64,000 nt of DNA from an uncultured Flavobacteriaceae bacterium (lineage in GTDB: Bacteria > Bacteroidota > Bacteroidia > Flavobacteriales > Flavobacteriaceae). Position 1 is the first letter of the stretch, and each line of letters begins with the position of its first letter. The notes under the pieces were generated by a model. It was not told where the DNA came from. It saw only the letters and a program-made list of their open reading frames with translations, and did not search any database. The stretch is taken from positions 152,773-216,772 of the forward strand of contig CANLUH010000004.1 of the NCBI GenBank assembly GCA_947494205.1. Direction: 5' to 3'. The position numbers and the translations under genes were made by a program. This document shows positions 18,327 to 51,001 of this stretch, piece after piece.

Positions 18327-18378
18327 TAAAGTAAGCGAGATTCGAACCCGCATCTCCTGCGTGACAGGCAGGTGTTTT
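18327..18378 (-). pseudogene. 3'-terminal fragment (~50 nt: anticodon stem through acceptor 3' strand) of tRNA-Asp(GTC); direct repeat of the intact gene at 19021-19092
   Basis: aaagtaagcgagaYtcgaacccgcatctcctgcgtgacaggcaggtgtttt is identical, bar one nucleotide, to the 3' half of the downstream tRNA-Asp. The upstream D-arm/acceptor 5' side is diverged and does not fold. Confidence 0.55.
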
Positions 18379-18517
18379 CCGATTATTATTAGTGCTTTCT
18401 TTGTTTTTATATACCCAATCATTCAAAGTTCGAGCTTTATTTATGAATGCTTATTAAAAGATGAAATCAGTTCTTTATTTTTCTTATCCAATAATAAAAT
18501 ACATTTCTAGACCTTTT

Positions 18518-19175: not shown

Positions 19176-19180
19176 ATTAG

Positions 19181-19250
19181 GAAAGTACATTGGACTCGAA
19201 CCAATATTTCGGGTATGAGACCGACGATTTCCAGTTATCTTAGTACTTTC
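19181..19250 (-). tRNA. tRNA-like element with CAT-containing anticodon-like loop (degenerate; possible Met-like pseudogene)
   Basis: Perfect 7-8 bp acceptor (GAAAGTA/TACTTTC) and a good T-arm (ATTGG-TTCGAGT-CCAAT). The D-arm and anticodon stem do not pair canonically. Confidence 0.3.
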
Positions 19251-31237: not shown

Positions 31238-31450
31238 TTTATTATTAATTACAGTACAAATATGAAATGAGATTACGCAATAGTTTTGCGTAGTTTAATT
31301 TTTTATGTTTTAGAGTAGAAAATAGTTGCAATTACAAATAGAACATGAATCTGCGTAAGCGATTGCAGCGGCATCCTTTTGCTTTTTCTGCAAAAGATAT
31401 AGCGAAAAGCGCGACCCAAACCTTTTTCTGGTTTGGGTTACGCCATAATA

Positions 31451-32551
31451 TTACTTATTTACAGAGAAAATATCTTTTAATTGTTCTATAACATTACCGT
31501 TGCCCGATACTGTAATTTCCCCAATTTTATCTGCAATCTTCTCTACATATTCCATTTCTTTTAACTTAAACAACATGGTATTGTCTTCCATTAATTTAGC
31601 GGTATTTAACAAGCTTCTTGTAGAGGCTGTTTCCTCACGTCTTGTTACTACATTGGCTTGCGCTTTTTTATGTGCTATTAATACTTGGTTCATGATCTCT
31701 TTCATATCACCTGGTAAAATAACATCTCTAATACCTGTATGCAATACGGTAACACCTAGCTTGTTTGCTTGTGTTTTTACGTCTTGTAAAACAGCATTTG
31801 CAATGGTTTCTTTTTGCTCTAGCAATTCATCTAGAGTATAAGCACCAACAAAGGCTCTTAAAGCTAATTGTAGTGTAATGTACAATTGTTTTTCGTAGTC
31901 TTTATTATGCATTAAAGCGGTTTCTATATTCGCTACTTTATATTGTGCGTAAAAGTTTATACGAACGGTTGCTTTATCTTTTGTTAATAATTCTTGACCT
32001 GAAACTTCCAATTGTAATTGACGTAAATCGGCTTTAGCTATTTTAATGGTTTTATCGTTTCTCCAGAAATGATATGTACCATGATCTAAGGTTTTAGCAT
32101 ATTTATCGTTTACTATCATAATCGCTTTTTCGTATGCTGCGACTTCGAACGTACGGATGTATTGACGTAAGGCTGCATTATTATATAAAGCCACATCTAT
32201 GGTTTCTGGAATGTTAATATTTGTAAAATCTACGGTTATAAATTTATAATCTATTAGACTATTCCAGTAGGCATGACGTCCTGCTGTTAATACGTGTTTA
32301 AAGTTATTGTTGCTATATACCAAAACAATCTCGTTATCTTGAATATCTACAACAGTTAACAATTGTGCCAAAGCCTCATCTTGTAGTAAGATCTCCAGAG
32401 CTTTTGGCGCATTAAATGCCGCGGTTAAACTATACGTCATTACGCTTTCGTTAAACCATAACCAATGTTTGCCTTCTGTAATTACGCGTACGTAATTACC
32501 TTTTTTAAACACCAAGCCTACATTACCTGCATGAATTCTTACTTGTTTCAT
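31451..32551 (-). CDS. SPFH/band-7 (stomatin/prohibitin-like) domain protein
   Basis: C-terminal half shows an SPFH-like pattern (LALRAFVGAYTLDELL...VLHTGIRDVILPG). Confidence 0.75.
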   Translation of the reverse strand: MKQVRIHAGNVGLVFKKGNYVRVITEGKHWLWFNESVMTYSLTAAFNAPKALEILLQDEALAQLLTVVDIQDNEIVLVYSNNNFKHVLTAGRHAYWNSLIDYKFITVDFTNINIPETIDVALYNNAALRQYIRTFEVAAYEKAIMIVNDKYAKTLDHGTYHFWRNDKTIKIAKADLRQLQLEVSGQELLTKDKATVRINFYAQYKVANIETALMHNKDYEKQLYITLQLALRAFVGAYTLDELLEQKETIANAVLQDVKTQANKLGVTVLHTGIRDVILPGDMKEIMNQVLIAHKKAQANVVTRREETASTRSLLNTAKLMEDNTMLFKLKEMEYVEKIADKIGEITVSGNGNVIEQLKDIFSVNK

Positions 32552-32599: not shown

Positions 32600-34560
32600 T
32601 AATAGAATTCCTTTTACTTGGAATGGCTATTCTTTTAGTAAAAACAAATTGAAAGCAAACCATCTTTAAGGCTACGGAAATACAAGCGTTTTAGAGTATT
32701 CTACAAATCGTTTTTATTAACGTTTTATTAGTAGACCTTGTAGTTCTTCAAGATATTTCTAACAATAGGCTTTCTAAAAAGGAGATGCAAAACGGCTTTA
32801 AATACTTCTGTATTTCAAGGTGCCTTCTAGATTGTAAAAACAACGTGTTGCTTTTACCTGTTTACCTTCTCTTTGTTTTTGTTTTGCCATTTAACGTGTG
32901 GCTCACAGTGGTGGTCGATTTTTAAAAGAGACCTTCTTTGTGAAAAGGCGGGTTTTTAATCCGCATCCTACATTAACAGTGTAGTGCTCTACCGCTGAGC
33001 TATATGACCTTTACAGTTGTCATAACAGGAATCGAACCTGTGCTTGTCTATTGTTCTAACCTGACTGAACTATCTCAAATGAATTGAGAGTGGGAATCGA
33101 ACCCACGACCTATAGAGTGATGATTATTTTTTGGATAAACAATCGAAACCTTCAAGTCTAGTTGAACATAAATACCTAATACCTATTGGCAAGATTTTAT
33201 ACAATAGTGTTATACAGAAACACCCAACAAGACCAGCTTGATATTTTTATAATTCCCGCTTTCGGGGAATCTTATTCTAATAAATTTGTACCTCTTGCCG
33301 GATTCGAACCGGCACTTTCAGATAATTCTGAACAGATAGGCTCTAAATGCGCTTCCCTACTCTACATCTTGTGTATTTCGGTGCTTCTGCAAAACCTAGT
33401 CATTGGCGGGCGCGCCACCAACCACATAATCCTATCACTCCATGGCTACGAATCAAAATCTTTTTCCACAGCTCTTCCCTTTAAGCTAAAGAGGTATATA
33501 TTTTAAAAAACGCTTTGAGAATACTTACGTTTGTAGATGAGCTTTCCTAGTATTATAGCTTGTGCTTTCTCTAGTTTTCCACGTTATTCTAATTGCTTAG
33601 AGAATCACGTACTCACCCGATGCCTTATTACATTACAACTGTTCGGCAACTTAGACTTAGCTTGCATAGTGGTTTTATACCACGCTTTGCAATTACAAGG
33701 GTTGGCTCCCTCACTATTAATAGGCGTCCTCTTTACGAGGCGGCCTACTAGAATGTTCACCGCACAGTAAAGGCTTGCGACCTTTACCGCCCCATATATT
33801 ACAATGGGTTTAGGCAACTACTAACTGCTGTAACGCTCGAAGTCTTTTGCGTTTGCTCACCAATTGAGCCATATCAAATTATGGTTTAGATACTAGGAAT
33901 CGAACCTAGAAATAAAGTTTTGACCTAGGAAAAGGGCTTCGAAAATGGCTTCGTAGATTTTAGCCTACAAAATACCAACCTTTTCCTTGTGTGTTTCCCA
34001 ACACACCGTATTTTAAGTTACCGAATCGTTTCCCACCGGGTAACTTTAATACTGCAACACGCTCCGTTAGACTGGATAATCTATACGTAACCCATTACTA
34101 CAACTTTTCCTATTAGTGTCTCCACCTCAAGCCTATATAAAAGTCGGCTATAAATCCTTATTTACGCCAGCGGTTGCCCCTTGTAAATAGTTATTTATGT
34201 TAGTTGCTTGCTTACGTGTACTATAATCTAAATGACTATAGTCTCCATTTGCAGTGTCTGCAAATAGATTTATCCTTGTTACCAAGTTTATCTATGGACG
34301 ATAAGCCGCCCCATCATTTATAATAAATGATGATTTTTTTCTAATAGAAGCTATCAAAAAAGTATTAAAAAAAGCGTCATTCTAAATTCATTTCAGAATC
34401 CCATTAAATTGACTTACAATTGTTATGAGAAACCGAATCAAGTTCGGTTTGACGAAAATTTGCCTTTTAAGACAGTTTCATTTTATTTCAATGATCGTTT
34501 TATTAAACTTAGATAGCTTCTTTTTAAGGGCCTTCTAAATAATTACTCTGCAAATATTTC
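32600..34560. other. ~2-kb ORF-free, highly structured region containing tRNA halves/fragments (candidate large ncRNA or decayed tRNA array)
   Basis: Only short mutually overlapping ORFs. Several perfect T-arm hairpins (ACAGG-TTCGATT-CCTGT; GTGGG-TTCGATT-CCCAC; GCCGG-TTCGAAT-CCGGC) and a tRNA-Asn-like 5' half (GGTCATATAGCTCAGCGGTAGAGCACTACACTGTTAATGTAG) without matching partners. Confidence 0.35.
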
Positions 34561-34598
34561 ACAGTATTACGCAGTGTTTTTGCGTAGTAAAATTTATT

Positions 34599-36431
34599 TT
34601 AATTAAAAAGCTTTAAAAAACTATCTTTTTCTAGATTCTCTAAAGAAAAATCAAAATCTGCTTCATCTTTATAATCTGTAAGTTCGGCTCCTAAAGTTCT
34701 TACCAATGTATTAAATGATAATGGTTCGTTCCATTGTTGGTATAATGCTTTGGTGGCTACATTAGATATTTCTGAATTACCAGATACTCTAGTATGTCCT
34801 GCTCCAAAATTTAACAATACAAAACATTGTTTATTCTTTTTAGGAATCAACATTCCTAAAATGGTTTGCTGCTGTACAGATTCGCACTTAATATCTGCAA
34901 AAAGATTATTTGGATTCAGCATGTAATCCCTAGAAACTTTATCACCTTTTCCTATAATAATCTTGTAACTACAATCTGCAGCTCCAGAGTATACATTGTT
35001 TTGAACCAAAGTAGGTACATTTAAACCTTTATTAGCATACAAATACTCAACAGCTCCTTTTGGTGCCGATGTAATATCTCCAGAATACATTAAGTTACCA
35101 TCTTGCTGGTTATAGGTACTGTTCCAACCTACTTTACCAGCTATATTTAACCCTGATAAATCCAAATCATGGGCGCCCCAAGCATTCTCCCAATAGATAC
35201 CGACTGCTAATTTTTTTCCATAAAAACATGTTCCGGTAGGAATGTTACCTACATACATTTTCTCTGATGTTGGCAATGCATATGTAATATCCTCAGGAAA
35301 AAACAATCGTTTACCTGATAAATCGAAACGCTGTTTTAAATAATTAATTAAAAACTGATAATTTTCCTTAAATACAGTATTTTCTAAAATCACCTTTTTA
35401 TGCTTACCTGCTTTGTTTCTCTTTAAAAGATTAAAAAGCATATTATTCCTACTTGCAGCAGAAACCCCATCTGACTTTACCCAAGATTTTCCATTTCTAA
35501 TTCTATATAAAAAGGCATCTTGCCCCTGTTTTCTAGTATAGCAAGCTGATAAAGCTTTAAATAAAGCAAATGGTGTTGCATTATCTAACCAATGCACATC
35601 TTTATCTGTTAGAAAGGCATTAGTTACATCATTTAACGGATTTGAAACTAATGGTTTATGATGCGTTTTCGATAACTTACTGATTTTATTAATCGTTTTT
35701 GGCGCTTTATTTTTAAAGGCTAAAAACAAAGGCTTGAATCTGTTAAAAATTTCTGCCAATTTTTCTAAACCAAATTGCTTAAATGCTTGTGTTGGATTAT
35801 AAGAACTTTCCTTAATCAATGCTATTAATGCATCGTTTTTAATTAGCAAAGTCGTGTCTGTTGCTCTGTAAATAATATACCTAAAAAATTCAACTGCATT
35901 TTCTGGATAAATATTATAGTATTCCGCTAACTTAATAATCGCTTCTTTGTTTCTTATATTCTCTTTACCAGTAAAGGTATAGTTTAACTCATCTACTAAA
36001 ACTGTAATCAAATTATCTATAGTTTCTTCTTTAAGTGCCATACCGGATTGCAACATCGATAAACATTTCTGTCTCATTTCATCTACAGAATAGCCTTTAA
36101 TTACTTTATAAACTAGTTTTACATTTGGAACATTAAGCACTTCTTCTGGAATATAAATTGCTTCTTGAAAATCACTTCCATAAGTAGACATATAATGGTT
36201 AATCTGTTCTACATATAACTCATATTTTGAGCTATTTTTAACCTTAGCCCACGACTTATGAAAGGTTTTGTTTAAATCATTACCATTTAATGTTTCCTTT
36301 TTTAAGAAATCGATAATTCTATCTTTAGCCCAAAGTGCATTAGGCGCGATAATGAATCCATCTTCTGAGATGTATGGTTTTTCGTTTGATGTTTTCGCTA
36401 TAACTGCGTTAAATAATTTTAATGTATTCAT
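34599..36431 (-). CDS. large hypothetical protein (610 aa)
   Basis: Single long ORF with no P-loop or other motif recognised. Centrally placed between the ncRNA-like region and a tRNA-like cluster. Confidence 0.5.
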   Translation of the reverse strand: MNTLKLFNAVIAKTSNEKPYISEDGFIIAPNALWAKDRIIDFLKKETLNGNDLNKTFHKSWAKVKNSSKYELYVEQINHYMSTYGSDFQEAIYIPEEVLNVPNVKLVYKVIKGYSVDEMRQKCLSMLQSGMALKEETIDNLITVLVDELNYTFTGKENIRNKEAIIKLAEYYNIYPENAVEFFRYIIYRATDTTLLIKNDALIALIKESSYNPTQAFKQFGLEKLAEIFNRFKPLFLAFKNKAPKTINKISKLSKTHHKPLVSNPLNDVTNAFLTDKDVHWLDNATPFALFKALSACYTRKQGQDAFLYRIRNGKSWVKSDGVSAASRNNMLFNLLKRNKAGKHKKVILENTVFKENYQFLINYLKQRFDLSGKRLFFPEDITYALPTSEKMYVGNIPTGTCFYGKKLAVGIYWENAWGAHDLDLSGLNIAGKVGWNSTYNQQDGNLMYSGDITSAPKGAVEYLYANKGLNVPTLVQNNVYSGAADCSYKIIIGKGDKVSRDYMLNPNNLFADIKCESVQQQTILGMLIPKKNKQCFVLLNFGAGHTRVSGNSEISNVATKALYQQWNEPLSFNTLVRTLGAELTDYKDEADFDFSLENLEKDSFLKLFN

Positions 36432-36731: not shown

Positions 36732-36844
36732 TAGTCCAGGTGGGATTCGAACCCACGACCCGCGGATTATGAATCTATACAGGAACTTTTATTTGTCGAA
36801 AGCGAAAAGTAATTTCGCTGCTCTAACCTCTGAGCTACTGGACT
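36732..36844 (-). tRNA. tRNA-like element (Val-TAC-like arm) with ~45-nt insertion between anticodon arm and T-arm
   Basis: Acceptor AGTCCAG/CTGGACT, D-arm GCTC-AGAGGTTA-GAGC, hairpin GCGAA-ATTACTT-TTCGC, then the insertion, then T-arm GTGGG-TTCGAAT-CCCAC. Three degenerate partial copies (repeat unit containing TATAGGAAC) lie at 36566-36735. Confidence 0.35.
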
Positions 36845-39582: not shown

Positions 39583-39809
39583 ATTTTTCTATATTTCTAT
39601 TTCAATGAACACCATAAAAAAAGCACCTCTTGTAACGGAAGGTGCTTTTTTTAAATCTATGTATACATCAACTCATGTATACACAACCTTCCTAGTATAT
39701 TTTATAAATCTTTCATCACAACTAAATGTTGCAACTGGTCTCGGCGAGCGAAACCAAAGATTTTGTTTAATTATATGTTGTAAATAATTCCTCATTATTG
39801 TTTTGTTAT

Positions 39810-40085
39810 TTTGATGGTGCAAATATGAAACGCTTTTTTGAATTACACAAGAAAAATTTAAATTTAATTAACTGATTATCAATTATTTATATTGTTTTTA
39901 GACACTATAATCCCTGTCCGTTTTTTAACGGATAATCAACATTTTTACAATAGCCTGTCTCACAATTGTTTTGCTGTTTCAAATTCTTATTTTACTGTTT
40001 TTAGTTTTTCAAATTCACTTAAAAATAATTTCAAAAAAAACGCCCAACTTTTAGGTTGGACGCTTTATGTTCTACTTTTAATTAT
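39810..40085. promoter_or_regulatory. conserved ~260-bp intergenic cassette (copy 2 of 3)
   Basis: Shares ggtgcaaatatgaaacgcttttttgaattacacaag...ccctgtccg...cctgtctcacaattg...aaaaaacgcccaacttttaggttggacgc with the copies at 23510 and 48495. Heads the large minus-strand tRNA array. Confidence 0.5.
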
Positions 40086-43296: not shown

Positions 43297-43989
43297 TTAT
43301 TTTAATTCATTACGCAGGTCATTTTTTAATGTACTGCGTTGTTTTTTATAAGTTTTCACAACTTTGTTTTTCTTAAAATCGGATCCTTTAAAAACCTGTA
43401 TTGGGTTACCTCGTTCTAATTTTAAATGGTTTTCCCATTGATTTTTAATACTAGATTTAAGTGCTTTAAGTTGTAACTCGTTTACTTTTTCTTGTAAACG
43501 TATTCTTGCTATTTTTTTATTTTGATGTTGTGAGCGGCTATCCATTACTAACACTTGCGTATTAGTTGGTTTATGGATAGCCCTAATAGCGGAGCTCACT
43601 TTATTTACATGTTGCCCTCCTGGCCCTGAACTTCTTGTAGCTTGATAGTTAATATCTTTTTCATGTATCTGAAATTGTTGTTTTTGTTCAATTTCGTATA
43701 GCCCAACAAACCAGTTTTTACGTTTATGTTTTGGCCTAAATGTTGAAACTCCTATCCATTGTATTGTGCCTTTCCATTGATTTAAAAATGTACTTAGATC
43801 TTTTCCTTCCAACTGAATCGTGACAGATTGTAATGTCATGTTTTCAATTCCTTTTTCTCTTTGTAATATTTTATAATCTATAGTATTGCTTTTTACGGCG
43901 TCTAAAAATTTCTTTAATACTTGTGCTACAACCCAGCAACATTCTGCTGGACCTCGACCAGAGGTTATTTGTACTATTTTTGTTTCCAA
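43297..43989 (-). CDS. prfH: peptide chain release factor H-like (PrfH), GGQ-domain protein
   Basis: SSGPGGQHVNKVSSAIRAIHKPTNT...RSQHQNK matches the class-I RF catalytic domain. At 230 aa it lacks RF domain 1, as PrfH does. Located two genes from rtcB. Confidence 0.8.
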   Translation of the reverse strand: METKIVQITSGRGPAECCWVVAQVLKKFLDAVKSNTIDYKILQREKGIENMTLQSVTIQLEGKDLSTFLNQWKGTIQWIGVSTFRPKHKRKNWFVGLYEIEQKQQFQIHEKDINYQATRSSGPGGQHVNKVSSAIRAIHKPTNTQVLVMDSRSQHQNKKIARIRLQEKVNELQLKALKSSIKNQWENHLKLERGNPIQVFKGSDFKKNKVVKTYKKQRSTLKNDLRNELK

Positions 43990-43993
43990 TGTT

Positions 43994-44548
43994 TTATGTT
44001 TTTTCTAAAGGATTTTTAGAAAGTAATACATTACCTACTGGACTTTTACCTTTTTCAATGAGTTGTAACGCGGCTTTTACTGCCCAACATTTATCGCTAG
44101 AATGAATGTTAGAGTAATAGCTTAATAGTGTTTTAGGCTCTACTATTTTCCAGCCGTTTACTTCTATAGCTTCTACAGTAGCCGATTCGAAAAAGTCTAT
44201 AGTTACTCTTATTTGTTTTCCAGAGCTTAACCAATCAATCTTTTCGTAACGTCTAAAATTCTCATTACTTGGCATGTGATCGTATCTTGTCCACACTTTT
44301 TTAAAGCCTTCTTGTGCTAATATTACCATAACTTCTGCAACGTCTTTTGGACGCACAAAAATGTCTATATCCTTATGATCATGTGCATGTTTATATTCTG
44401 TATGGTCTTCTGGTGACATAAAATGCCATGCCCAACCTCCAGAGATTATAATCCATGATTTTAATTTATTTAAAATGTCCAAACCTTGTTCTATTCTATA
44501 GTTTGGCCATTGTTCTCCGTATCTTTTTATGTTATGATTTGCTCCCAT
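43994..44548 (-). CDS. hypothetical protein, possible minimal nucleotidyltransferase
   Basis: The ISGGWAW...HKDIDIFVRP pattern loosely resembles a GS/DxD NTase core. Assignment is weak. Confidence 0.35.
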   Translation of the reverse strand: MGANHNIKRYGEQWPNYRIEQGLDILNKLKSWIIISGGWAWHFMSPEDHTEYKHAHDHKDIDIFVRPKDVAEVMVILAQEGFKKVWTRYDHMPSNENFRRYEKIDWLSSGKQIRVTIDFFESATVEAIEVNGWKIVEPKTLLSYYSNIHSSDKCWAVKAALQLIEKGKSPVGNVLLSKNPLEKT

Positions 44549-44677
44549 TTTTTTTAGTCTTTAGCTATTAGCGTTAATTGAAATTCTACATTGCGTTAGG
44601 GATTGAGGCATTTGTTGAAGCTCCTCGCAGAGAGCGACTGCCAAAAGCCCGACCCTTGTGGTAACGCCAAAAACTTA

Positions 44678-46069
44678 TTACCTATCCATTCTCACAATTT
44701 TTGGCGTAAACTTACCTACAACCTCTACCAATTCTAATTGATTTTGCATGACTTTTTCTATGTTTTTATAAGCCATTGGTGCTTCGTCTATTCCGCCACC
44801 TATTAATGAGACTTCATGTTTTTGTAATTCTTTTTTAACTGCACTTTGCGTTAACTTCATTTTACATTGTCGTCTAGACAATAATCGTCCAGCGCCGTGC
44901 GATGCCGATTGTAAACTGTCCTTATTTCCTAATCCTCTTACTATAAATCCTGGCGCTGTCATAGACCCTGGGATAATACCTAATTCTCCTTTTTTGGCTG
45001 GTGTTGCTCCTTTTCTATGTACTATACATTCTTCACCATTTACCTCTTGTTTCCAAGCAAAATTGTGATGATTTTCTATTTTAGCAATTGGTCTTTCTCC
45101 TAATAGTTTTGCTATTCTTTTATGAATATCATCATGGCAAGCTTGCGCATAATCTCCAGCTAAATTCATGGCCAACCAATATTCTTGTCCGTCGTGCGTA
45201 TTTAAATCTAACCATGCTAAATGCTGTACATGTTTTGGCAACGGACATTGTTTTGTTGCTAAATAGGTATAGTGTTTTGCGATGTTAGCACCTAATCCTC
45301 GTGATCCACTGTGCGATAAAACGCCTAGATATTCTCCTATTGGTAAATCCCATTCGTTGTTTACATCTAGAATACTTACTTCTCCAAATTCTACAAAATG
45401 GTTTCCTCCTCCAGAGGTTCCTAATTGCTTATAGGCTTTATCTTTTAAGCGTTTTACTAACGGAATGGTTTTAAATTCGTCACGCTCAAAAACTGGGCTA
45501 TCATGTTTTATTTTATGCGTTTCGTACATTCCAAATTTGGTATGTTCGGATAAAATATTTTCCAATTGATGCTTTTTCCCCTTTAAGTAAGAAGCTTTTA
45601 CTGGATAAATGGTTAAACACATTCTGCACCCAATATCTACACCTACCCCATAAGGTATTACTGCATTTTTTGTGGCTAATACACCACCAATTGGTAAGCC
45701 ATAACCTACATGTGCATCTGGCATTAAAGCCCCTGCAACAGAAATTGGCAATTTTAAAGCATCGTATAATTGGTATTTTGCCTGCTCTTCAATTTCGTTT
45801 TCGCCATAAATATGGAATGGTGCTCTGTGAGTGTTTAACTTTTGTTTTGTTACATGTACAGGATCTAACAGACTTTCTGCTATTTTCCCCCAAACGCCAT
45901 CACCTTTATAGTGTTCTGGATTTAATAATACCTTTTTTGCTTCTGTTAATATTTTTTCTTTTTTTACTCGTTTCTGATAACGATTAATCTGACCTAAAGT
46001 CACATTAATACTATTGTTCTTTGGAAAGCCTAATTTTATTAAGTCTTTTCCGCTTAATTTTTTTCCCAT
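44678..46069 (-). CDS. rtcB: RNA 3'-phosphate/5'-OH ligase RtcB
   Basis: 463 aa with the C-terminal SASHGAGRLLSRRQ signature and an internal conserved His-rich region typical of RtcB. Confidence 0.9.
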   Translation of the reverse strand: MGKKLSGKDLIKLGFPKNNSINVTLGQINRYQKRVKKEKILTEAKKVLLNPEHYKGDGVWGKIAESLLDPVHVTKQKLNTHRAPFHIYGENEIEEQAKYQLYDALKLPISVAGALMPDAHVGYGLPIGGVLATKNAVIPYGVGVDIGCRMCLTIYPVKASYLKGKKHQLENILSEHTKFGMYETHKIKHDSPVFERDEFKTIPLVKRLKDKAYKQLGTSGGGNHFVEFGEVSILDVNNEWDLPIGEYLGVLSHSGSRGLGANIAKHYTYLATKQCPLPKHVQHLAWLDLNTHDGQEYWLAMNLAGDYAQACHDDIHKRIAKLLGERPIAKIENHHNFAWKQEVNGEECIVHRKGATPAKKGELGIIPGSMTAPGFIVRGLGNKDSLQSASHGAGRLLSRRQCKMKLTQSAVKKELQKHEVSLIGGGIDEAPMAYKNIEKVMQNQLELVEVVGKFTPKIVRMDR

Positions 46070-47497: not shown

Positions 47498-48494
47498 TTT
47501 AAAGTTCGCTACTAAAGGTTATTGCCCATGTAAAACCACTTAAAATCTTAACACATAGTATGAATTTATATGTGTATGAAATTATTTTCTAATTTGACTT
47601 TTGCTACGTAATGAAAAAGTATTGTTTTAATTAATAATTATTTTGAACTTGTGTATTATATATAAGCTCAAGAAAACTTTATTTATAAGCTTCTTTTTGG
47701 AATATTAATATAGCATCGTGTTTTTATTTTATGCTTTCTTTCATAAACTGAAATAGAATGCATAACCGTTTTACACCATTACTTAGCTTATTATACTATT
47801 TTTACTTAGCACATAAATAGCCCTATAGATAAGACTCTTAGGAATTTGACGTAGCTAGTTTTTATTTGGTTACCCTCAAAATTTCTCTTTACCTGCTTAA
47901 TAAACGTCGGACTTCCTTTTGTCTTTATTTTTTATGTTTTCTGGTTTCTTTAGACGTTTTAATAATTGTTTGCCTGTTTAGATGATTCCAGTATCACTCC
48001 CGATGTGGAATCGGTATTTAGATTGTATGTAAGTGTTTCATTTTTAAATTTTGTGTTGTGAATTGCATTTTGAATCGTGTCGACTACGACCAAACTACCA
48101 TTCTGGTTGTGTTGTTTCATACCAATTACAACTTAAATCGAGCTAAATAAAACGCCCTTTTTTCCTTTATTTATTATTAAAAAAAGAAACCGTAACTATG
48201 GCTATGATTTATTTTTTATAATTCAACTAAAGAAAAAAATCATCATTTTATTTTAATCTCTTTTTAAATTATAATTGGTATAACTGTTTGGATGTTTTTT
48301 AGCAGACTTGCTAATGACTGAAAACAAAAAACCCGAAACAGTTTTTAAATTGCTTCGGGTTTTTCATTTATCTATGAAAAGTGGTATTAACTATACGCTC
48401 GAAGCACAACAAAAGGTAGAATTCCTTTTGGATCGGTTTGATTAGATATAAATAAACTCATACTTCGATTTTAGTTAAACTTAATTTTGTTGCT

Positions 48495-48745
48495 TTATTG
48501 CGATGCAAATATGTAATGTATTTTTCAATTACACAAATAAAATATCGATTTTATTTCATTGATAATCAGGTATTTAAAACCAAATAAGACAATATTATCC
48601 CTGTCCGAATAGCTTCAGATTTGTAATCCCTTGGCGATGCGCTATGTAGTTATTTAAGACACAACTTCTAGGCATTCATAGATTTTTAAAATTTTTATAA
48701 AAAAAACGTCCAAATTTAATTATTTGGACGTTTTTTTTTATTTTC
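48495..48745. promoter_or_regulatory. conserved ~260-bp intergenic cassette (copy 3 of 3)
   Basis: cgatgcaaatatgtaatg...ccctgtccg...aaaaaaacgtccaaatttaattatttggacgttttttttt. On the minus strand it faces the ORF-free 47500-48490 stretch. Confidence 0.45.
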
Positions 48746-48931
48746 TAAACTGTATCTATCTATTAAAATGCTTATAATATCGCAGTTTTTCGCCCTGATT
48801 ATGTAATTCAAATAGATTCATACAAGTATTTATTTTAATTTTTTTGTGCTTTTATGCAGTGCAAATATGTGATTTTTATTTTAATTTAAGAAAAAAAGCT
48901 ATGATTTTTATAAAATCATAGCTTTTCATAA

Positions 48932-51001
48932 TTATAATACTACTTGGTTAAAAACCGTTTCTGTTACTTTATTATACCTTAATAAAGTTAAAGATATTGT
49001 TCCTCTACCACTAGTTAAGGTCCTTAAATCGGAGATGTAACCAAATGTTTCTAATAAAGGTACTTGGGCACGTATCTTTCGTTTAGTTCCATCTTCTTTT
49101 ATTTCCATAATAATGCCTCTTTTTTTATTAATGTCTGATGTTACTTTTCCTAAATAATCTTCAGGACATTCAATTTCGGCATTCATTATAGGTTCTAACA
49201 GCATAGGTTTTGTTAAAGTTGCTACTTGTTTAAAACCATGTTTAGCAACAATTTCAAAATCTAATGGGCTAGAATCTTCTGCATGAACCTTTCCGTCTAA
49301 TAAAACCACACGCATCGTTTCTACAGGGTAACCTGCTAATATTCCAGATTGCATAGCTTCTAAAAAGCCTTTTTCAACATTTGGAATAAATTCTTTAGGA
49401 ATGTTTCCACCTTTAATTTCATTTACAAATTCTAATCCCTTTTGTTTTTCTACACTAGGACCCAATGTAAATTTAATTTGGGCGAATTGTCCGTTTCCTC
49501 CATTTTGTTTTTTAAAGACTTCTGTATGTTCTACGGTTGTCTGTAATCGTTCTTTAAAGGATACTTTTGGATTCCCTTTTTGAATGGCTACTCCAAATTC
49601 TGATTTCAACTTTTCTAATCGTACATCTAAATGTAACTCTCCCATACCATGCAAAATGGTTTGCCCTGTTTGCTGATCGAAAGACATTTTTAATGATGGA
49701 TCTTCGTCTAAAATTTTAGCAATAGCTTCTCCAAAATGTTTTTCGTCATCTTTAGATTTTGGTTCCACTGCTATACTTATAACAGGTTCTGACACATCAA
49801 TAGATTCTAGAGTAAATGCATCGTCTAGTTCACACAACGTATCTCCAGTTTTTGCATTTTTTAATCCTATTAATGCTACAATATCTCCTGCTTTAGCTTC
49901 TTTTAGTTCTATAAATTTATCGGCTTGAATTTTTAAAATTCTACTTACTCTATTTTTTTGTTGAGATCTAGAATTTAAAATAGTCTCGCCTACTTTAATA
50001 GCACCAGCATACACTCTAACCATAGCTAAACTTCCTACGTAATTATCTGAAACAACCTTAAATACTAATCCTGTAAATGGTGTACTAACAGAACGTAATC
50101 TACGTTCTTCTTCATTATTTTTATTTACACCTTTTATATACTTAATATCATCCGGCGCTGGTAAGTATTGCGAAATAGCGTTTAATAATGGCTGCACACC
50201 TATATACTTAAACGATGAACCACAAAGCACTGGTACTGCTTGTTGTTTTATTGTAATAGCTCTAATAGCATGCATTAGTTCTGTATTACTAATCGGTTCA
50301 TTTTCCAAATACTTAATCAGTATAGTTTCATCAAAACCAGAAACTGTTTCTATAAGTTGTTCTTTCCATTGCAACAGTAATGGCTTTAAATCTTCAGTGA
50401 CTACTTTCTCTTCCCAAGTATGTCCTAAATCATTCGTATTCCAATACATTGCTTTTTCTGTTATAAGATCAATAATGCCTATAAAATCATCACCTTCTCC
50501 AATAGGAATTTGAAGCACCATTGGTACTGTATTTAATTCTTGTTGAATAGCACTTACAACTTTAAAAAAGTCTGCACCGATTCTATCCATTTTATTAATA
50601 AAACACAATTTTGGAATACCATATTTATTAGACTGACTCCAAACGGTTTCAGATTGCGGCTCTACACCTGATGATGCACAAAATAAAGCTACAACACCAT
50701 CTAATATTCTTAATGAACGTTCTACTTCTATAGCAAAATCTATATGCCCAGGCGTATCTATTATATTAATTTGATGTACCATCTCATTATAACTCCAATC
50801 TGCTGAAATTGCCGATGACGAAATTGTTATGCCTCGTTTTGCTTCTTGAGGATCACTATCGGTTACTGTATTACCATCATCTATATTTCCTGGTTTATGT
50901 ATGGTTCCTGTATAATACAATATACGTTCTGTTGTTGTCGTTTTTCCTGCATCTACATGGGCTATTATTCCTATATTTCTAAGTTGTTTATCTCGTTTCA
51001 T
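48932..51001 (-). CDS. elongation factor G paralog (EF-G-like translational GTPase)
   Basis: 689 aa. G1 motif AHVDAGKTTTTERILYYTG and DTPGHIDF, followed by the full EF-G domain II-V length. Longer than RF3. Confidence 0.85.
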   Translation of the reverse strand: MKRDKQLRNIGIIAHVDAGKTTTTERILYYTGTIHKPGNIDDGNTVTDSDPQEAKRGITISSSAISADWSYNEMVHQINIIDTPGHIDFAIEVERSLRILDGVVALFCASSGVEPQSETVWSQSNKYGIPKLCFINKMDRIGADFFKVVSAIQQELNTVPMVLQIPIGEGDDFIGIIDLITEKAMYWNTNDLGHTWEEKVVTEDLKPLLLQWKEQLIETVSGFDETILIKYLENEPISNTELMHAIRAITIKQQAVPVLCGSSFKYIGVQPLLNAISQYLPAPDDIKYIKGVNKNNEEERRLRSVSTPFTGLVFKVVSDNYVGSLAMVRVYAGAIKVGETILNSRSQQKNRVSRILKIQADKFIELKEAKAGDIVALIGLKNAKTGDTLCELDDAFTLESIDVSEPVISIAVEPKSKDDEKHFGEAIAKILDEDPSLKMSFDQQTGQTILHGMGELHLDVRLEKLKSEFGVAIQKGNPKVSFKERLQTTVEHTEVFKKQNGGNGQFAQIKFTLGPSVEKQKGLEFVNEIKGGNIPKEFIPNVEKGFLEAMQSGILAGYPVETMRVVLLDGKVHAEDSSPLDFEIVAKHGFKQVATLTKPMLLEPIMNAEIECPEDYLGKVTSDINKKRGIIMEIKEDGTKRKIRAQVPLLETFGYISDLRTLTSGRGTISLTLLRYNKVTETVFNQVVL

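What the first reader, a model, noticed from the sequence alone, without database searches (positions are those of the whole stretch)
32600..34560. 2-kb ORF-free structured stretch downstream of a conserved promoter cassette: candidate large ncRNA
No credible ORF is present; the track ORFs here are short and mutually overlapping. GC-rich helical segments (ggcggcctac...gtaaaggcttgcgacctttaccgcc) and multiple perfect hairpins are embedded in AT-rich DNA.

The region starts just downstream, on the minus strand, of the promoter/operator motif at 34549-34595. Large ornate RNAs (GOLLD/ROOL class) are characteristically found beside tRNA clusters in phage-like regions. A second ORF-free stretch (47500-48490) sits downstream of cassette copy 3.
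Basis: inference. Interest (0 to 1): 0.55.

Follow-up and report, generated by a model that had tools for sequence, protein, structure and literature searches.

The report
GOLLD RNA gene with tRNA mimics
The gene-free stretch encodes a GOLLD RNA, a giant bacterial RNA known to assemble into hollow cages but of unknown function, here carrying a tRNA look-alike inside it and sitting in a chromosomal island of tRNA and RNA-repair genes.

Summary
Window 32600-34560 has no ORF over 106 aa, is richer in G+C than its flanks, and starts just downstream (minus strand) of a repeated promoter-like cassette.

Minus strand 34314-33505 (about 810 nt) is a GOLLD RNA.
- Rfam RF02032 matches end to end: 136 bits, E 8e-36, just under the gathering score of 150.
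- The upstream half is homologous and collinear with the 5' domains of canonical GOLLDs.
- Helices covary: 95.6% of cells are paired against about 42% in slid controls.
- Orthologues at 78-83% identity occur in Winogradskyella, and a more distant one in a Saprospiraceae MAG. All six genome-derived ones score 128-131 bits.

It is not one 2-kb RNA. The remaining ~1 kb holds a tRNA-like RNA with a ~120-nt insertion, a conserved ~95-nt structured element, and two circularly permuted tRNA-like modules (T arm, closed acceptor hairpin, D arm). This is the topology of the YrlA tRNA-like domain.

A third such module sits inside the GOLLD inter-domain linker, which faces the cage interior in solved structures.

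The surroundings are a chromosomal island of tRNA arrays and RNA-repair genes (Pnkp, Rnl1, Rnl2-like, RlaP, RtcB-PrfH).

Verdict: known RNA class, new clade-level variant. Function remains inferred.

The parts
34548..34594 (-). Promoter/operator-like cassette. It holds the palindrome ACGCA-N7-TGCGT followed by ATATTTGCAG. It is the presumed start of the GOLLD transcription unit.
   Evidence: One of six copies in the window, each read on the minus strand; five lie 4-220 nt upstream of a called minus-strand gene. An 87%-identical copy lies about 207 nt upstream of the orthologous GOLLD in metagenome contig L156. Promoter function is inferred, not shown.
34315..34547 (-). A+T-rich leader with hairpins at about 34450-34430 and 34332-34312. 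The second hairpin abuts the GOLLD 5' end.
   Evidence: Sequence read. It is not conserved at BLAST level in the relatives. Every Winogradskyella orthologue nevertheless has a hairpin directly 5' of GGGGCGG (alignment A1).
33505..34314 (-). GOLLD RNA, whole gene (about 810 nt).
   Evidence: The Rfam match covers 33987-33510. Homology to 5' domains of canonical GOLLDs reaches confidently to about 34312. The 5' end of the cryo-EM construct env-38 aligns at about 34314. The block conserved in Winogradskyella is 34345-33496. Covariation is shown.
33988..34314 (-). GOLLD 5' domain, including the conserved motif UUGAGGUGGAGACACUAAUAGGAAAAG at 34130-34104.
   Evidence: nhmmer gives E 7e-8 to L036, ending exactly where Rfam's GOLLD match begins there. 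The motif retrieved 30 GOLLD loci from IMG/VR and 6 from genomes.
33926..33987 (-). Long hairpin that closes the 5' domain (Rfam model positions 1-62).
   Evidence: cmscan alignment. Helices 14 and 15 of A2 are 96-99% paired, with 12 pairs changed on both sides.
33854..33909 (-). Module i: circularly permuted tRNA-like module inside the GOLLD linker. Its order is T arm CUAGG-UUCGAUU-CCUAG, strand UAUCUAA, loop ACCAUAA, strand UUUGAUA, UG, then D arm GCUC-AAUUGGU-GAGC.
   Evidence: 51 bits with model R1. It is present in all eight Winogradskyella-type GOLLDs, though L150 has lost the T arm. The closed acceptor helix covaries, for example UAAAAGA/UCUUUUA in L157 and UCCU/AGGA in L154.
33510..33853 (-). 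GOLLD 3' domain. It contains GCAAAAGACUUCG, the CGCAAG-loop hairpin, GUGGAAAA, AUAAU and GUAUUCUCA. A long-range helix joins 33835-33827 to 33639-33631.
   Evidence: cmscan alignment. The long-range helix is 9/9 paired in all nine Bacteroidota sequences, with compensatory changes. A clade-specific insertion and deletion are visible in A2.
33505..33510 (-). U6 tract directly after the last GOLLD helix; a possible terminator.
   Evidence: A U-rich tract follows the last helix in all eight Winogradskyella-type GOLLDs and in the Saprospiraceae one. It is absent from the IMG/VR GOLLDs (alignments A1 and A2). Termination is inferred.
33289..33495 (-). tRNA-like RNA in normal strand order. It has a 7-bp acceptor (ACCUCUU/AAGAGGU), a D arm and a T arm (GCCGG-UUCGAAU-CCGGC). 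About 120 nt of structured insert plus a short tetraloop hairpin replace the anticodon arm.
   Evidence: Fold with z = -2.0. It is present in L155 and, with a different and compensating acceptor (GGAAGUA/UACUUCC), in L156. It is absent from L150, L152, L153 and L154. ARAGORN calls neither a tRNA nor a tmRNA here.
33150..33242 (-). Conserved structured element of about 95 nt (outer stem plus two hairpins). No known family.
   Evidence: Conserved in all seven Winogradskyella-type loci that reach this far. The outer stem covaries: CUGG/CUAG in the window against CAAG/CUUG in L156. No Rfam family matches it.
33047..33116 (-). Module ii: permuted tRNA-like module. UCUAU pairs with AUAGA as an anticodon-stem equivalent. 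Then come AGGUC, T arm GUGGG-UUCGAUU-CCCAC, closed acceptor UCUCAAU/UUUGAGA, UA, and D arm GUUC...GAAC.
   Evidence: Rfam YrlA 35.3 bits (gathering score 69), E 2e-5 in the region. The orthologues score 35.6-39.1 bits. R1 gives 66 bits. The acceptor is CUUCCCC/GGGGAAG in L152, L153 and L155, fully compensatory.
32948..33046 (-). Module iii: permuted tRNA-like module. It has T arm ACAGG-UUCGAUU-CCUGU, closed acceptor UAUGACA/GGUCAUA, UA, a D arm, a complete anticodon arm (loop CUGUUAA, anticodon GUU), and then a hairpin without a T-loop.
   Evidence: Rfam tRNA 34.8 bits over model positions 8-63 only, so no acceptor of its own. R1 gives 56 bits. The orthologues have CAAAGUC-ACCA.../GACUUUG, CAAAGCC-ACCA.../GGCUUUG and CAAAUCC-ACCA.../GGAUUUG. 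Their anticodon loops differ: GUU, CAU, UUU.

Best explanation
Identity. Minus strand 34314-33505 encodes a GOLLD RNA. It belongs to a Bacteroidota subclade (Winogradskyella-type, with a relative in a Saprospiraceae MAG) that falls just under Rfam's gathering score.

Transcript ends (inferred). It is probably transcribed from the repeated promoter/operator cassette at 34594-34548 and ends at a U tract after its last helix.

Fold and assembly (inferred from homology). Solved GOLLD structures (env-38, and the S. agalactiae 3' domain) show two separate domains, assembly into a hollow homo-oligomeric all-RNA cage, and an inter-domain linker pointing into the lumen. This RNA is expected to behave the same way.

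The clade-specific feature. The linker is not a spacer or an ordinary tRNA. It is a circularly permuted tRNA-like module: a T arm, then a closed 7-bp acceptor hairpin whose loop often starts ACCA, then a D arm. This is the same topology as the tRNA-like domain of YrlA Y RNAs.

The rest of the 'ORF-free 2 kb' is separate, modular RNA:
- an optional tRNA-like RNA with a ~120-nt insert;
- a conserved ~95-nt structured element;
- two more permuted tRNA-like modules.

Likely role (inferred, not shown). The surrounding 34-kb island holds tRNA arrays and genes for RNA repair and translation rescue. The most likely role is therefore a cage that holds or presents tRNA-shaped RNA to enzymes that cut, repair or modify tRNA.

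The confidence given (0.85) applies to the identification as a GOLLD RNA with embedded and neighbouring permuted tRNA-like modules. The functional role is a much weaker inference.
For: GOLLD identity
- RF02032 matches 33987-33510(-) over model positions 1-416: 136.1 bits, E 2.7e-37 in the region and 7.6e-36 in the window.
- The 5' half gives nhmmer hits (E 7e-8 to 2e-3) in seven IMG/VR loci. In the six that were scanned, each hit lies immediately 5' of a 289-305-bit Rfam GOLLD match.
- The 5' end of env-38 aligns at about 34314.

Structure
- A consensus structure was computed from 21 other GOLLDs without the window. The window sequence forms 123 of the 184 pairs it can be scored on, 47 of them by changes on both sides. 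Shifted controls give 65-80 and 16-26.
- On 24 sequences, 100 pairs are 95.6% paired, against 41-44% when slid. 63 pairs change on both sides. The covariation score is 0.576 against about 0.1, and 0 of 500 shuffles reach it.
- The long-range helix is 9/9 paired, with covariation, in nine Bacteroidota sequences.

Orthologues
- Five Winogradskyella genomes and two metagenome contigs are 78-83% identical over 34345-33496. The same SPFH gene lies downstream where the contig reaches far enough, in six of the seven.
- The six genome-derived ones score 127.7-131.1 bits.

Permuted modules
- 18 instances pair on average about 6.2 of 7 positions between the strand after a T arm and the strand before the next D arm. 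20 ordinary adjacent tRNA pairs give 2.75, with a maximum of 5.
- All 7 pairs of the closed acceptor helix change on both sides. 96.1% of cells in the module structure are paired, against 28-48% when slid.
- Rfam YrlA gives 35-39 bits.

Context and literature
- Island genes.
- Cage structure and the lumen-facing linker that can hold tRNAs: PMC12286853 and PMC12990946.
- YrlA topology, and RNase P cleavage of a YrlA with a 7-bp acceptor: bioRxiv 10.1101/312249.
Against: - The Rfam score is below the curated gathering score (136 against 150).
- A sequence-only HMM of canonical 3' domains barely sees the window (6.8 bits).
- The clade lacks one canonical 3'-domain hairpin and carries a ~60-nt insertion. 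Cage formation and stoichiometry therefore cannot be assumed to match env-38.
- I could not map the published inter-chain kissing loops onto this sequence.
- There are no expression data. The promoter, the terminator and processing are all inferred.
- The structure used was derived from the same alignment it was scored on.
- The module alignment A5 left out a few instances whose register is shifted, and its acceptor loops were trimmed.
- No Ro60/Rsr gene was found among the ORFs scanned, so the YrlA analogy concerns shape only.
- Model R1 separates the modules (51-66 bits in the window) from ordinary tRNA-tRNA junctions (40 bits or less) only moderately, and the window modules were in its training set.
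Confidence: 0.85

Rival explanations
1. The whole stretch is only a decayed remnant of a tRNA array (pseudo-tRNAs), without function of its own.
For: The region contains T-arm fragments and tRNA pieces. Rfam tRNA scores are 17.9-34.8 bits, some lacking an acceptor or an anticodon arm. It lies in an island full of tRNA arrays. One element (33495-33289) is present or absent among the relatives.
Against: About 810 nt is a full-length GOLLD with E about 1e-36 and covarying helices. The tRNA-derived modules are conserved across 6-8 genomes, with compensatory changes that keep the closed acceptor hairpins. Neutral decay would not do this. The non-tRNA 95-nt element is also conserved and covaries.
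Confidence: 0.03
2. The full ~2 kb (34540-32600) is one giant RNA, larger than any GOLLD, in which the downstream tRNA-like parts are integral domains.
For: No canonical strong terminator lies between GOLLD and the SPFH gene; only + strand matches were found. The order GOLLD, 95-nt element, module ii, module iii, SPFH is conserved.
Against: A conserved U tract follows the last GOLLD helix. A 207-nt element is inserted or absent exactly at that junction in different genomes. Canonical GOLLDs end at the same helix. L157 shows no detectable similarity to the window's downstream block. These points indicate separable modules that may be co-transcribed and then processed.
Confidence: 0.08
3. The permuted modules are working genes for two-piece or re-joined tRNAs. 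RNase P and 3' trimming would open the closed acceptor (7 bp, often followed by ACCA). This would give aminoacylatable split tRNAs or, with the island's RtcB ligase, re-ligated tRNAs. For the linker module it would cut GOLLD into two non-covalently held halves.
For: The acceptors are 7 bp, and ACCA follows directly in many copies, whereas the island's ordinary tRNA genes do not encode CCA. Module iii has a complete anticodon arm. M. smegmatis YrlA with a 7-bp acceptor is cleaved by RNase P and receives CCA (bioRxiv 10.1101/312249). RtcB, Pnkp, Rnl1 and an Rnl2-like ligase are encoded nearby.
Against: The anticodon of module iii differs among close orthologues (GUU, CAU, UUU; one copy has an irregular loop), which is unlike a decoding tRNA. 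Modules i (in three genomes) and ii lack an anticodon loop. No bulge-helix-bulge motif or splicing endonuclease was identified. Nothing here tests processing.
Confidence: 0.12
4. The stretch encodes small proteins rather than RNA.
For: Mechanical ORFs of 41-106 aa exist. A 30-codon ORF can be read at 32889-32797(-).
Against: The ORFs overlap on both strands and cross RNA helices that covary. The start of the 30-codon ORF is not conserved in L156. Conservation follows base pairing, not codons.
Confidence: 0.02

Closest known systems
GOLLD RNA (Rfam RF02032; env-38 cryo-EM structure PDB 9MEE, PMC12286853)
   Same: Length of about 800 nt. Two-domain layout with a linker. Conserved 3'-domain motifs and helices, including the long-range helix. 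The start of the 5' domain (GGCGGcUUAnCGUC...AGAUAA) and the GAGGUGG...AGGAAAAG motif. Position beside tRNA genes.
   Different: Scores 136 bits, under the gathering score of 150. One canonical 3'-domain hairpin is missing, and a ~60-nt clade-specific insertion is present. A U tract follows the 3' end. The linker holds a permuted tRNA-like module. The gene is chromosomal in Flavobacteriaceae rather than in a recognisable phage, and the clade-specific pattern has no hit in IMG/VR.
GOLLD in Mycobacterium/Mycolicibacterium tRNA arrays, with tRNA-Phe embedded in J13/15 (Morgado et al. 2020, as cited in PMC12990946)
   Same: GOLLD lies inside a chromosomal or island tRNA array, with a tRNA-type element in the same linker. 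In five Winogradskyella loci a tRNA-Phe gene (anticodon GAA in four, AAA in one) is the last ARAGORN-called tRNA before GOLLD. The Saprospiraceae relative has a normal-order tRNA in the linker.
   Different: Here the embedded element is circularly permuted. Its acceptor is closed by a loop, and in the window it has no anticodon arm, so it cannot simply be released as a tRNA.
YrlA (Y RNA-like A, Rfam RF02553): tRNA-like domain
   Same: Same order of parts: anticodon-stem equivalent, T arm, closed acceptor stem-loop, D arm. The T-loop and D-loop are canonical. Module ii matches the Rfam model at 35 bits, and its orthologues at 36-39 bits.
   Different: The score is far below the gathering score (69). 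There is no long terminal stem of the kind that binds Ro60, and the outer stem in the cmscan alignment is mostly unpaired. No rsr/Ro60 gene was found among the ORFs scanned. The modules occur in tandem, and one lies inside a GOLLD.
Circularly permuted tRNA genes (Cyanidioschyzon merolae, some green algae, Thermofilum pendens; PMC3978253, PMC3218864)
   Same: The 3' half (T arm, acceptor 3' strand, sometimes ACCA) lies upstream of the 5' half (acceptor 5' strand, D arm, anticodon arm), joined by a short loop.
   Different: Those are processed through a bulge-helix-bulge motif by a splicing endonuclease that is unknown in bacteria. No such motif or enzyme was found here. The anticodons are not conserved among orthologues.
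Two-piece (permuted) tmRNA
   Same: Permuted order: T arm and acceptor 3' end come before the acceptor 5' end. A related phage-like contig has a tmRNA in the equivalent slot (L002 and L003, 52 bits).
   Different: ARAGORN finds no tmRNA. Rfam tmRNA gives 20 bits against a gathering score of 47. There is no G3:U70 and no tag reading frame.
ROOL RNA
   Same: Another large cage-forming RNA found near tRNA islands (PMC12286853).
   Different: No ROOL match in the region, even at E<=10.

Membership tests
GOLLD RNA (RF02032) | Statistically significant match to the family covariance model over its full length | tested here: met
   Model positions 1-416 of 416, 136.1 bits, E 2.7e-37 (2.3-kb scan) and 7.6e-36 (64-kb scan).
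GOLLD RNA (RF02032) | Score at or above Rfam's curated gathering score (150 bits). This is an operational cut-off, not a biological feature. | tested here: not met
   136.1 bits. The gathering-threshold scan lists no GOLLD. All six genome-derived orthologues score 127.7-131.1 bits. The shortfall is explained by a deleted hairpin (model positions ~300-323), largely deleted model positions ~252-271, and large insertions.
GOLLD RNA (RF02032) | Large size (about 800 nt) with a variable 5' domain, a linker and a conserved 3' domain | tested here: met
   34314-33505 is 810 nt. 5' domain 34314-33926, linker 33925-33854, 3' domain 33853-33510.
GOLLD RNA (RF02032) | 5' region homologous to the 5' domains of accepted GOLLDs | tested here: met
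   nhmmer E 7e-8 to L036, collinear and ending where that locus's 305-bit Rfam match starts. Six more loci also hit. A shared 27-nt motif is present.
GOLLD RNA (RF02032) | Helices supported by covariation, including the long-range (pseudoknot-annotated) helix of the 3' domain | tested here: met
   95.6% paired, and 63 of 100 pairs changed on both sides; 9/9 pairs in nine sequences, with ACAG/CUGU, GUAG/CUAC and GCAG/CUGC variants.
GOLLD RNA (RF02032) | Genomic association with tRNA genes or tRNA arrays (often phage or prophage) | tested here: met
   21 or more tRNAs in the island. tRNA arrays lie directly upstream of the orthologues. No phage structural genes were seen among the ORFs scanned.
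GOLLD RNA (RF02032) | Self-assembly into a homo-oligomeric RNA cage | not testable with these tools
   Known for env-38 (14-mer) and for the S. agalactiae 3' domain (8-, 10- and 12-mers) (PMC12286853, PMC12990946). The inter-chain loops could not be mapped here.
YrlA / bacterial Y RNA (RF02553) | tRNA-like domain in the order T arm, closed acceptor stem-loop, D arm, closed by an anticodon-stem equivalent | tested here: met
   Module ii at 33116-33047: UCUAU/AUAGA, AGGUC, T arm, UCUCAAU/UUUGAGA, UA, D arm.
YrlA / bacterial Y RNA (RF02553) | Score at or above the gathering score (69 bits) | tested here: not met
   35.3 bits in the window and 35.6-39.1 bits in the orthologues.
YrlA / bacterial Y RNA (RF02553) | Long stem formed by the 5' and 3' ends that carries the Ro60-binding site | tested here: not met
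   The outer stem positions in the cmscan alignment are mostly non-pairing (v marks). The 3' side runs straight into the T arm of module iii.
YrlA / bacterial Y RNA (RF02553) | Encoded next to rsr (Ro60, TROVE domain) | tested here: not met
   No TROVE match in the 39 window ORFs scanned with Pfam, ten of them also with NCBIfam. The 610-aa neighbour has no family or PDB match. Not all 52 ORFs were scanned.
Circularly permuted tRNA genes | 3' half upstream of the 5' half of the same tRNA, with complementary acceptor strands | tested here: met
   Control with ordinary neighbouring tRNAs.
Circularly permuted tRNA genes | Bulge-helix-bulge motif at the termini, and processing to a mature continuous tRNA | not tested
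   No systematic BHB search was run, and no splicing endonuclease was recognised among the ORFs scanned. Maturation needs RNA data.
tmRNA | tRNA-Ala-like acceptor with a tag reading frame; detection by ARAGORN or Rfam | tested here: not met
   No ARAGORN tmRNA. RF00023 gives 20.4 bits against a gathering score of 47.

The most novel reading that the evidence does not exclude
In this Bacteroidota clade, each GOLLD chain carries a closed-acceptor tRNA mimic of the YrlA type in the linker that points into the cage lumen. More such mimics, with fast-changing anticodon loops (GUU, CAU, UUU), are made from the same locus.

Together with the neighbouring Pnkp, Rnl1, Rnl2-like, RlaP and RtcB-PrfH genes, this would make the locus a system that answers attacks on tRNA. 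The cage and the mimics would act as decoys, sponges or scaffolds for tRNA-cutting or tRNA-repairing enzymes.

A sharper version: RNase P opens the 7-bp acceptor hairpins. This would cut GOLLD into two non-covalently held halves and produce two-piece, CCA-ended tRNA-like RNAs.

Either version would give GOLLD its first mechanistic link to a cellular pathway. It would also show permuted tRNA-like genes being processed in bacteria outside the Ro60/Y RNA system.
Probability: 0.15. Interest if true: 0.85.

Novelty: new variant of a known kind. Interest (0 to 1): 0.5.

Why it matters
GOLLD has been known since 2009 and is now known to form huge all-RNA cages, yet nobody knows what it does.

What this locus adds:
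- It shows a clade that Rfam's gathering threshold misses. All seven GOLLD copies scanned here (the window and six genome orthologues) score 128-136 bits against a gathering score of 150.
- The clade is chromosomal and occurs in named Winogradskyella strains, for example W. aquimaris KCTC 23502 and W. marincola YYF002.
- GOLLD sits inside a dense island of tRNA arrays, RNA-repair genes and ribosome-rescue genes.
- The lumen-facing linker carries a circularly permuted tRNA mimic instead of a tRNA.

This yields concrete hypotheses that can be tested. Does RNase P cut the linker? Does the cage bind tRNA enzymes? Does deleting GOLLD change survival after tRNA damage?

It also gives an argument for rebuilding the Rfam seed so that this clade is annotated.

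If nothing beyond the identification holds, the result is still useful. A 2-kb 'empty' region is explained by a known RNA class plus tRNA-derived modules.

Tried and rejected
- INPHARED phages. The 2-kb region (distant mode) and the surrounding 24 kb (near mode) gave nothing except a 71-nt hit, presumably a tRNA.
- Synteny through neighbouring proteins. The 610-aa protein has three IMG/VR relatives. None has a GOLLD after it. L001 has ordinary genes there, and L002 and L003 have a tmRNA. The SPFH protein has no IMG/VR relative.
- A loose GOLLD pattern (GCAAAAGWCTTCG...CTAA) returned 120 loci, mostly chance matches. Only 16 hold a GOLLD that a sequence HMM can detect.
- That HMM, built from canonical 3' domains, scores the window at only 6.8 bits. 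Sequence-only search of the 3' domain fails; the covariance model and the 5' domain were needed.
- mafft-qinsi was unavailable because MXSCARNA is missing, so L-INS-i alignments were used. Variable regions are probably misaligned, which lowers the pair counts and causes the apparent mispairing of IMG/VR sequences.
- Mapping the published inter-chain kissing loops was abandoned. The env-38 sequence recovered from the supplement has 816 letters instead of 833, and my alignment script also corrupted the FASTA.
- tmRNA, tRNA intron and long-variable-arm readings of 33495-33289 were considered. It has no tag frame, no G3:U70 and no ARAGORN call, and it is too short for a group I intron. It is left as a 'tRNA-like RNA with insert'.
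- Aligning the insertion-bearing tRNA at 36844-36732 with similar-length hits in L002, L150 and L152 was uninformative.
- A sigma-54 reading of the cassette was rejected by eye. TTGCA is present, but there is no GG at -24.
- Model R1 of the permuted module does not cleanly exclude ordinary tRNA-tRNA junctions, which score up to 40 bits. Its best hit in IMG/VR, L052, proved to be two normal-order tRNA-like genes.
- The exact-protein look-up of the SPFH gene found no source contig.
- The Morgado 2020 paper is not held in the library.


Full report
**1. The observation**

Between the genes at 31451-32551(-) and 34599-36431(-), the ORFs lying inside the region are 41-106 aa. They overlap one another on both strands. 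G+C rises to 0.37-0.43 across 32800-34000, against 0.28-0.34 around it.

It belongs to a family of six 66-nt copies. Read on the minus strand, each contains the palindrome ACGCA-N7-TGCGT followed by ATATTTGCAG. Five copies lie 4-220 nt upstream of a called minus-strand gene.

**2. What the core is**

At Rfam's gathering thresholds the window shows only tRNAs and one Flavo-1 RNA. At an E-value threshold, the GOLLD model RF02032 matches 33987-33510 on the minus strand over all 416 model positions. The score is 136.1 bits against a gathering score of 150. The E-value is 2.7e-37 in the region scan and 7.6e-36 in the whole-window scan. ROOL, HEARO, OLE, RNase P and group I/II introns do not match, even at E<=10.

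The Rfam model covers only the last hairpin of the 5' domain, the linker and the 3' domain. I therefore searched with the 560 nt upstream of the match. It gives nhmmer hits (E 7e-8 to 2e-3) in seven IMG/VR contigs. In the six that I scanned, each hit lies immediately 5' of an Rfam GOLLD match of 289-305 bits. In L036 the homology ends at position 5055 and the Rfam match starts at 5056.

The confidently aligned part starts at GGGGCGGCUUAUCGUCCAUAGAUAA (34312). The 5' end of the cryo-EM construct env-38 (GGAUGGCCGCUAUGGUCGUCAAAUAAAU; PMC12286853, supplementary table) aligns there too. The gene is therefore 34314-33505, about 810 nt. This is the usual size for a GOLLD.

**3. Comparative support**

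A 27-nt motif of the 5' domain (UUGAGGUGGnGACACnAAnAGGAAAAG, window 34130-34104) retrieved 30 GOLLD loci from IMG/VR. They are about 48% identical to the window.

The same motif retrieved six loci from species-representative genomes. Five are Winogradskyella and one is a Saprospiraceae MAG. A clade-specific pattern found two further metagenome contigs and nothing in IMG/VR.

The Winogradskyella-type sequences are 78-83% identical to window 34345-33496. The same SPFH gene lies downstream where the contig reaches far enough, in six of the seven. All six genome loci score 127.7-131.1 bits with RF02032, again below the gathering score.

*Independent structure test.* I computed an RNAalifold consensus from 21 other GOLLDs, leaving the window out. 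The window sequence forms 123 canonical pairs out of the 184 it can be scored on, 47 of them through changes on both sides. With the partner shifted by 1-3 columns the figures are 65-80 and 16-26.

*Test on 24 sequences (A2).* 100 predicted pairs are 95.6% paired, against 41-44% when slid and 77.7% when shuffled. 63 pairs change on both sides. The covariation score is 0.576 against about 0.1. The caveat is that this structure was derived from the same alignment.

*Long-range helix.* The helix that Rfam annotates as a pseudoknot (33835-33827 with 33639-33631) is 9/9 paired in all nine Bacteroidota sequences. The variants ACAG/CUGU, GUAG/CUAC, GCAG/CUGC and GCAA/UUGC occur.

It is not met.

**4. 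Why the score is under the Rfam threshold**

In the cmscan alignment and in A2, the clade lacks the canonical hairpin gUGgUuggccUAAccaAcCG. Model positions ~252-271 are largely deleted, and there is a ~60-nt insertion at about 33745-33690. The linker is also longer.

A sequence-only HMM of canonical 3' domains sees the window at only 6.8 bits. The gathering score is an operational cut-off. Homology over both domains and the E-value justify calling this a GOLLD, but a divergent clade of it.

**5. The linker holds a permuted tRNA-like module**

In canonical GOLLDs of A2 the linker is an unstructured stretch of about 60 nt. In the Saprospiraceae relative it holds a normal-order tRNA, as described for some GOLLDs (PMC12286853; PMC12990946, which cites tRNA-Phe in J13/15).

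In the window and the seven Winogradskyella-type sequences the order is different:
- T arm (CUAGG-UUCGAUU-CCUAG);
- a 7-nt strand (UAUCUAA);
- a loop that often begins ACCA;
- the complementary 7-nt strand (UUUGAUA);
- two bases (UG or UA);
- D arm (GCUC-AAUUGGU-GAGC);
- in five genomes, an anticodon-like arm.

The closed acceptor helix covaries: UAUCUGA/UUGGAUA, UCCU/AGGA, UAAAAGA/UCUUUUA, UAUCUCC/GGGGAUA. This is the topology of the tRNA-like domain of YrlA Y RNAs, described as resembling circularly permuted tRNAs with closed acceptor stems (bioRxiv 10.1101/312249).

**6. The 3' kilobase**

Downstream of GOLLD's U tract (33510-33505, conserved in the clade) the region holds four elements.

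(a) *33495-33289.* A tRNA-like RNA in normal order, with a 7-bp acceptor, a D arm and a T arm. About 120 nt of structured insert plus a tetraloop hairpin replace the anticodon arm. It is present in L155 and, with a compensating acceptor (GGAAGUA/UACUUCC), in L156. It is absent from four genomes.

(b) *33242-33150.* A structured element of about 95 nt, conserved in all seven loci that reach it, with a covarying outer stem. It has no Rfam family.

(c) *Module ii, 33116-33047.* A complete permuted tRNA-like body: UCUAU/AUAGA closing stem, AGGUC, T arm, closed acceptor, UA, D arm. It matches Rfam YrlA at 35.3 bits, and its orthologues at 35.6-39.1 bits. All are under the gathering score of 69.

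(d) *Module iii, 33046-32948.* The same layout with a full anticodon arm. Its anticodon differs among orthologues: GUU, CAU, UUU, and one copy has an irregular loop.

*Control.* The strand after a T stem and the strand before the next D arm pair at about 6.2 of 7 positions in 18 module instances. In 20 ordinary adjacent tRNA pairs of the window the mean is 2.75 and the maximum is 5, while each ordinary tRNA pairs 7/7 with itself.

On 16 aligned instances, 96.1% of cells in the module structure are paired, against 28-48% when slid. All 7 pairs of the closed acceptor helix change on both sides. For this alignment the loops were trimmed, and a few instances with a shifted register were left out.

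The ordinary tRNA genes of the island do not encode CCA, whereas many module loops begin ACCA.

A covariance model of the module (R1) scores the three window copies at 51-66 bits and ordinary tRNA junctions at 40 bits or less. It detects an untrained linker module in L154 at 51 bits. It finds nothing convincing in 1.4 Mb of IMG/VR contigs.

**7. Context**

The window is a Bacteroidota chromosome. Its flanks hold T9SS-sorted proteins, biotin carboxylase and a prolyl oligopeptidase. An island of about 34 kb (17.5-51 kb) is read entirely on the minus strand. It holds:
- tRNA arrays;
- an Rnl2-like ligase and two RlaP nucleotidyltransferases;
- an RNase T-like exonuclease;
- Pnkp and Rnl1;
- an SPFH protein;
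- GOLLD;
- a 610-aa protein with no family match;
- two metallophosphoesterases;
- PrfH (TIGR03072, 223 bits) next to RtcB;
- an EF-G paralogue.

No phage structural genes and no Ro60/TROVE protein were found among the ORFs scanned. In the relatives, GOLLD follows a tRNA array directly. In five of them a tRNA-Phe gene is the last tRNA called before it. In the window and in L156, the promoter cassette stands there instead.

**8. How it most likely works**

*Shown.* It is a GOLLD homologue with a conserved, covarying fold. It carries a conserved tRNA-shaped module in the linker, and further modules lie downstream.

*Inferred from solved homologues.* It has two separately folded domains, assembles into a hollow all-RNA cage, and its linker lies in the lumen (PMC12286853, PMC12990946).

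*Inferred from sequence alone.* Transcription starts at the cassette and ends at the U tract.

*Hypothesis.* The cage holds or presents tRNA-shaped RNA to enzymes of the surrounding island that damage, repair or modify tRNA. The 7-bp acceptor hairpins followed by ACCA may be opened by RNase P, as reported for M. smegmatis YrlA.

*Rivals.* A neutral tRNA-array remnant, a single 2-kb RNA, genuine split tRNA genes and small proteins are weighed in the rival section. The first and the last are effectively excluded by the conservation pattern.

**9. Novelty**

GOLLD next to tRNA arrays is known, and Flavobacteriia hits already appear in a published GOLLD alignment. Four things appear new within the literature I could search:
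- a coherent Bacteroidota clade that lies below the Rfam threshold;
- its altered 3' domain;
- a YrlA-type permuted tRNA mimic in the lumen-facing linker, with tandem mimics downstream;
- the placement inside an RNA-repair island in named Winogradskyella strains.

I rate it a new variant of a known kind, of moderate interest. Its value is that it turns the open question of GOLLD function into specific experiments.

**10. The second ORF-free stretch (47500-48490)**

It has no Rfam match and only ORFs of 53 aa or less. It folds with z = -5.9 and contains a terminator-like hairpin about 130-165 nt downstream of a second type of promoter-like repeat. It is not a GOLLD or ROOL and remains unexplained.

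Noticed in passing
window 36732-36844 (-): A tRNA (CAU anticodon loop UUCAUAA, acceptor AGUCCAG/CUGGACU) with an insertion of about 42 nt between the D arm and the anticodon loop. Rfam tRNA 52 bits over 113 nt, MFE z = -4.5; ARAGORN does not call it. It sits about 90 nt downstream of a copy of the promoter cassette. Rfam tRNA matches of 113 nt (L002, L003) and 127 nt (L150) occur in other loci. The nature of the insertion (intron or extra arm) is unresolved.
   Followed up: partly
window 43297-46069 (-): PrfH (release factor H, TIGR03072 at 223 bits), a 184-aa protein without any family match, and RtcB lie side by side. This resembles the RtcB-PrfH pairing. It belongs to an island that also holds Pnkp, Rnl1, an Rnl2-like ligase, two RlaP proteins, an RNase T-like exonuclease and two metallophosphoesterases.
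   Followed up: partly
window 47500-48490 (-), also 48493-48556 and 48849-48912: The second ORF-free stretch is A+T-rich (G+C 0.25-0.28) and has no Rfam match. It folds with z = -5.9 and has a strong terminator-like hairpin at about 48364-48328(-), some 130-165 nt downstream of a promoter-like repeat. It could hold a short sRNA or a long leader of the PcfJ-like gene.
   Followed up: partly
window 23504-23567, 39807-39870, 48493-48556, 48849-48912: A second repeat family (minus strand: ...CATTACATATTTGCACC...). It shares the ATATTTGCA core with the first cassette but lacks the ACGCA/TGCGT palindrome. Two copies precede the two main tRNA clusters.
   Followed up: partly
window 31345-31420 (+): A Flavo-1 RNA (RF01705, 53.6 bits, above the gathering score of 42). 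It lies on the opposite strand, in the gap between the Rnl1 and SPFH genes.
   Followed up: no
window 48932-51001 (-): A full-length EF-G paralogue (all five EF-G domains) is encoded at the edge of the island, next to the tRNA and RNA-repair genes.
   Followed up: no
window 19180-19249 (-) and 18327-18395 (-): Odd tRNA calls in the first tRNA cluster. ARAGORN reports a 'tRNA-???' with a two-base anticodon, and Rfam reports a weak tRNA (34.9 bits). These may be further degenerate or mimic tRNAs.
   Followed up: no
L151 1867-2726 (-), Saprospiraceae MAG JBGCFD010000125.1: A GOLLD (129.6 bits) lies in the middle of a 25-tRNA array. A normal-order tRNA sits inside its linker (Rfam 54 bits). ARAGORN cannot read its anticodon loop (CUUUAAA region) and reports 'tRNA-???'.
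   Followed up: partly
L150, L152, L153, L154, L155 (Winogradskyella loci): In all five genomes the last ARAGORN-called tRNA before GOLLD is tRNA-Phe (GAA; AAA in L155). GOLLD starts roughly 90-155 nt after it. Published work places a tRNA-Phe inside the linker of Mycolicibacterium GOLLD.
   Followed up: partly
L002 3530-3806 and L003 4444-4720: In two IMG/VR contigs that encode a 55%-identical relative of the window's 610-aa protein, the slot after that gene holds a tmRNA (52 bits, above the gathering score of 47) instead of a GOLLD. Structured tRNA-like sequence lies upstream of it.
   Followed up: partly
L052 595-790: In a phage contig, a canonical-type GOLLD is followed by a long-variable-arm tRNA. 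Next comes a tRNA-like gene with an acceptor, a D arm and a T arm but no anticodon arm (ACGUGCA...UGCACGU).
   Followed up: no
window 34599-36431 (-): The 610-aa protein directly upstream of the GOLLD promoter has no match in Pfam, PHROGs, NCBIfam or PDB sequences. It has relatives in three IMG/VR contigs that also carry tRNAs.
   Followed up: partly
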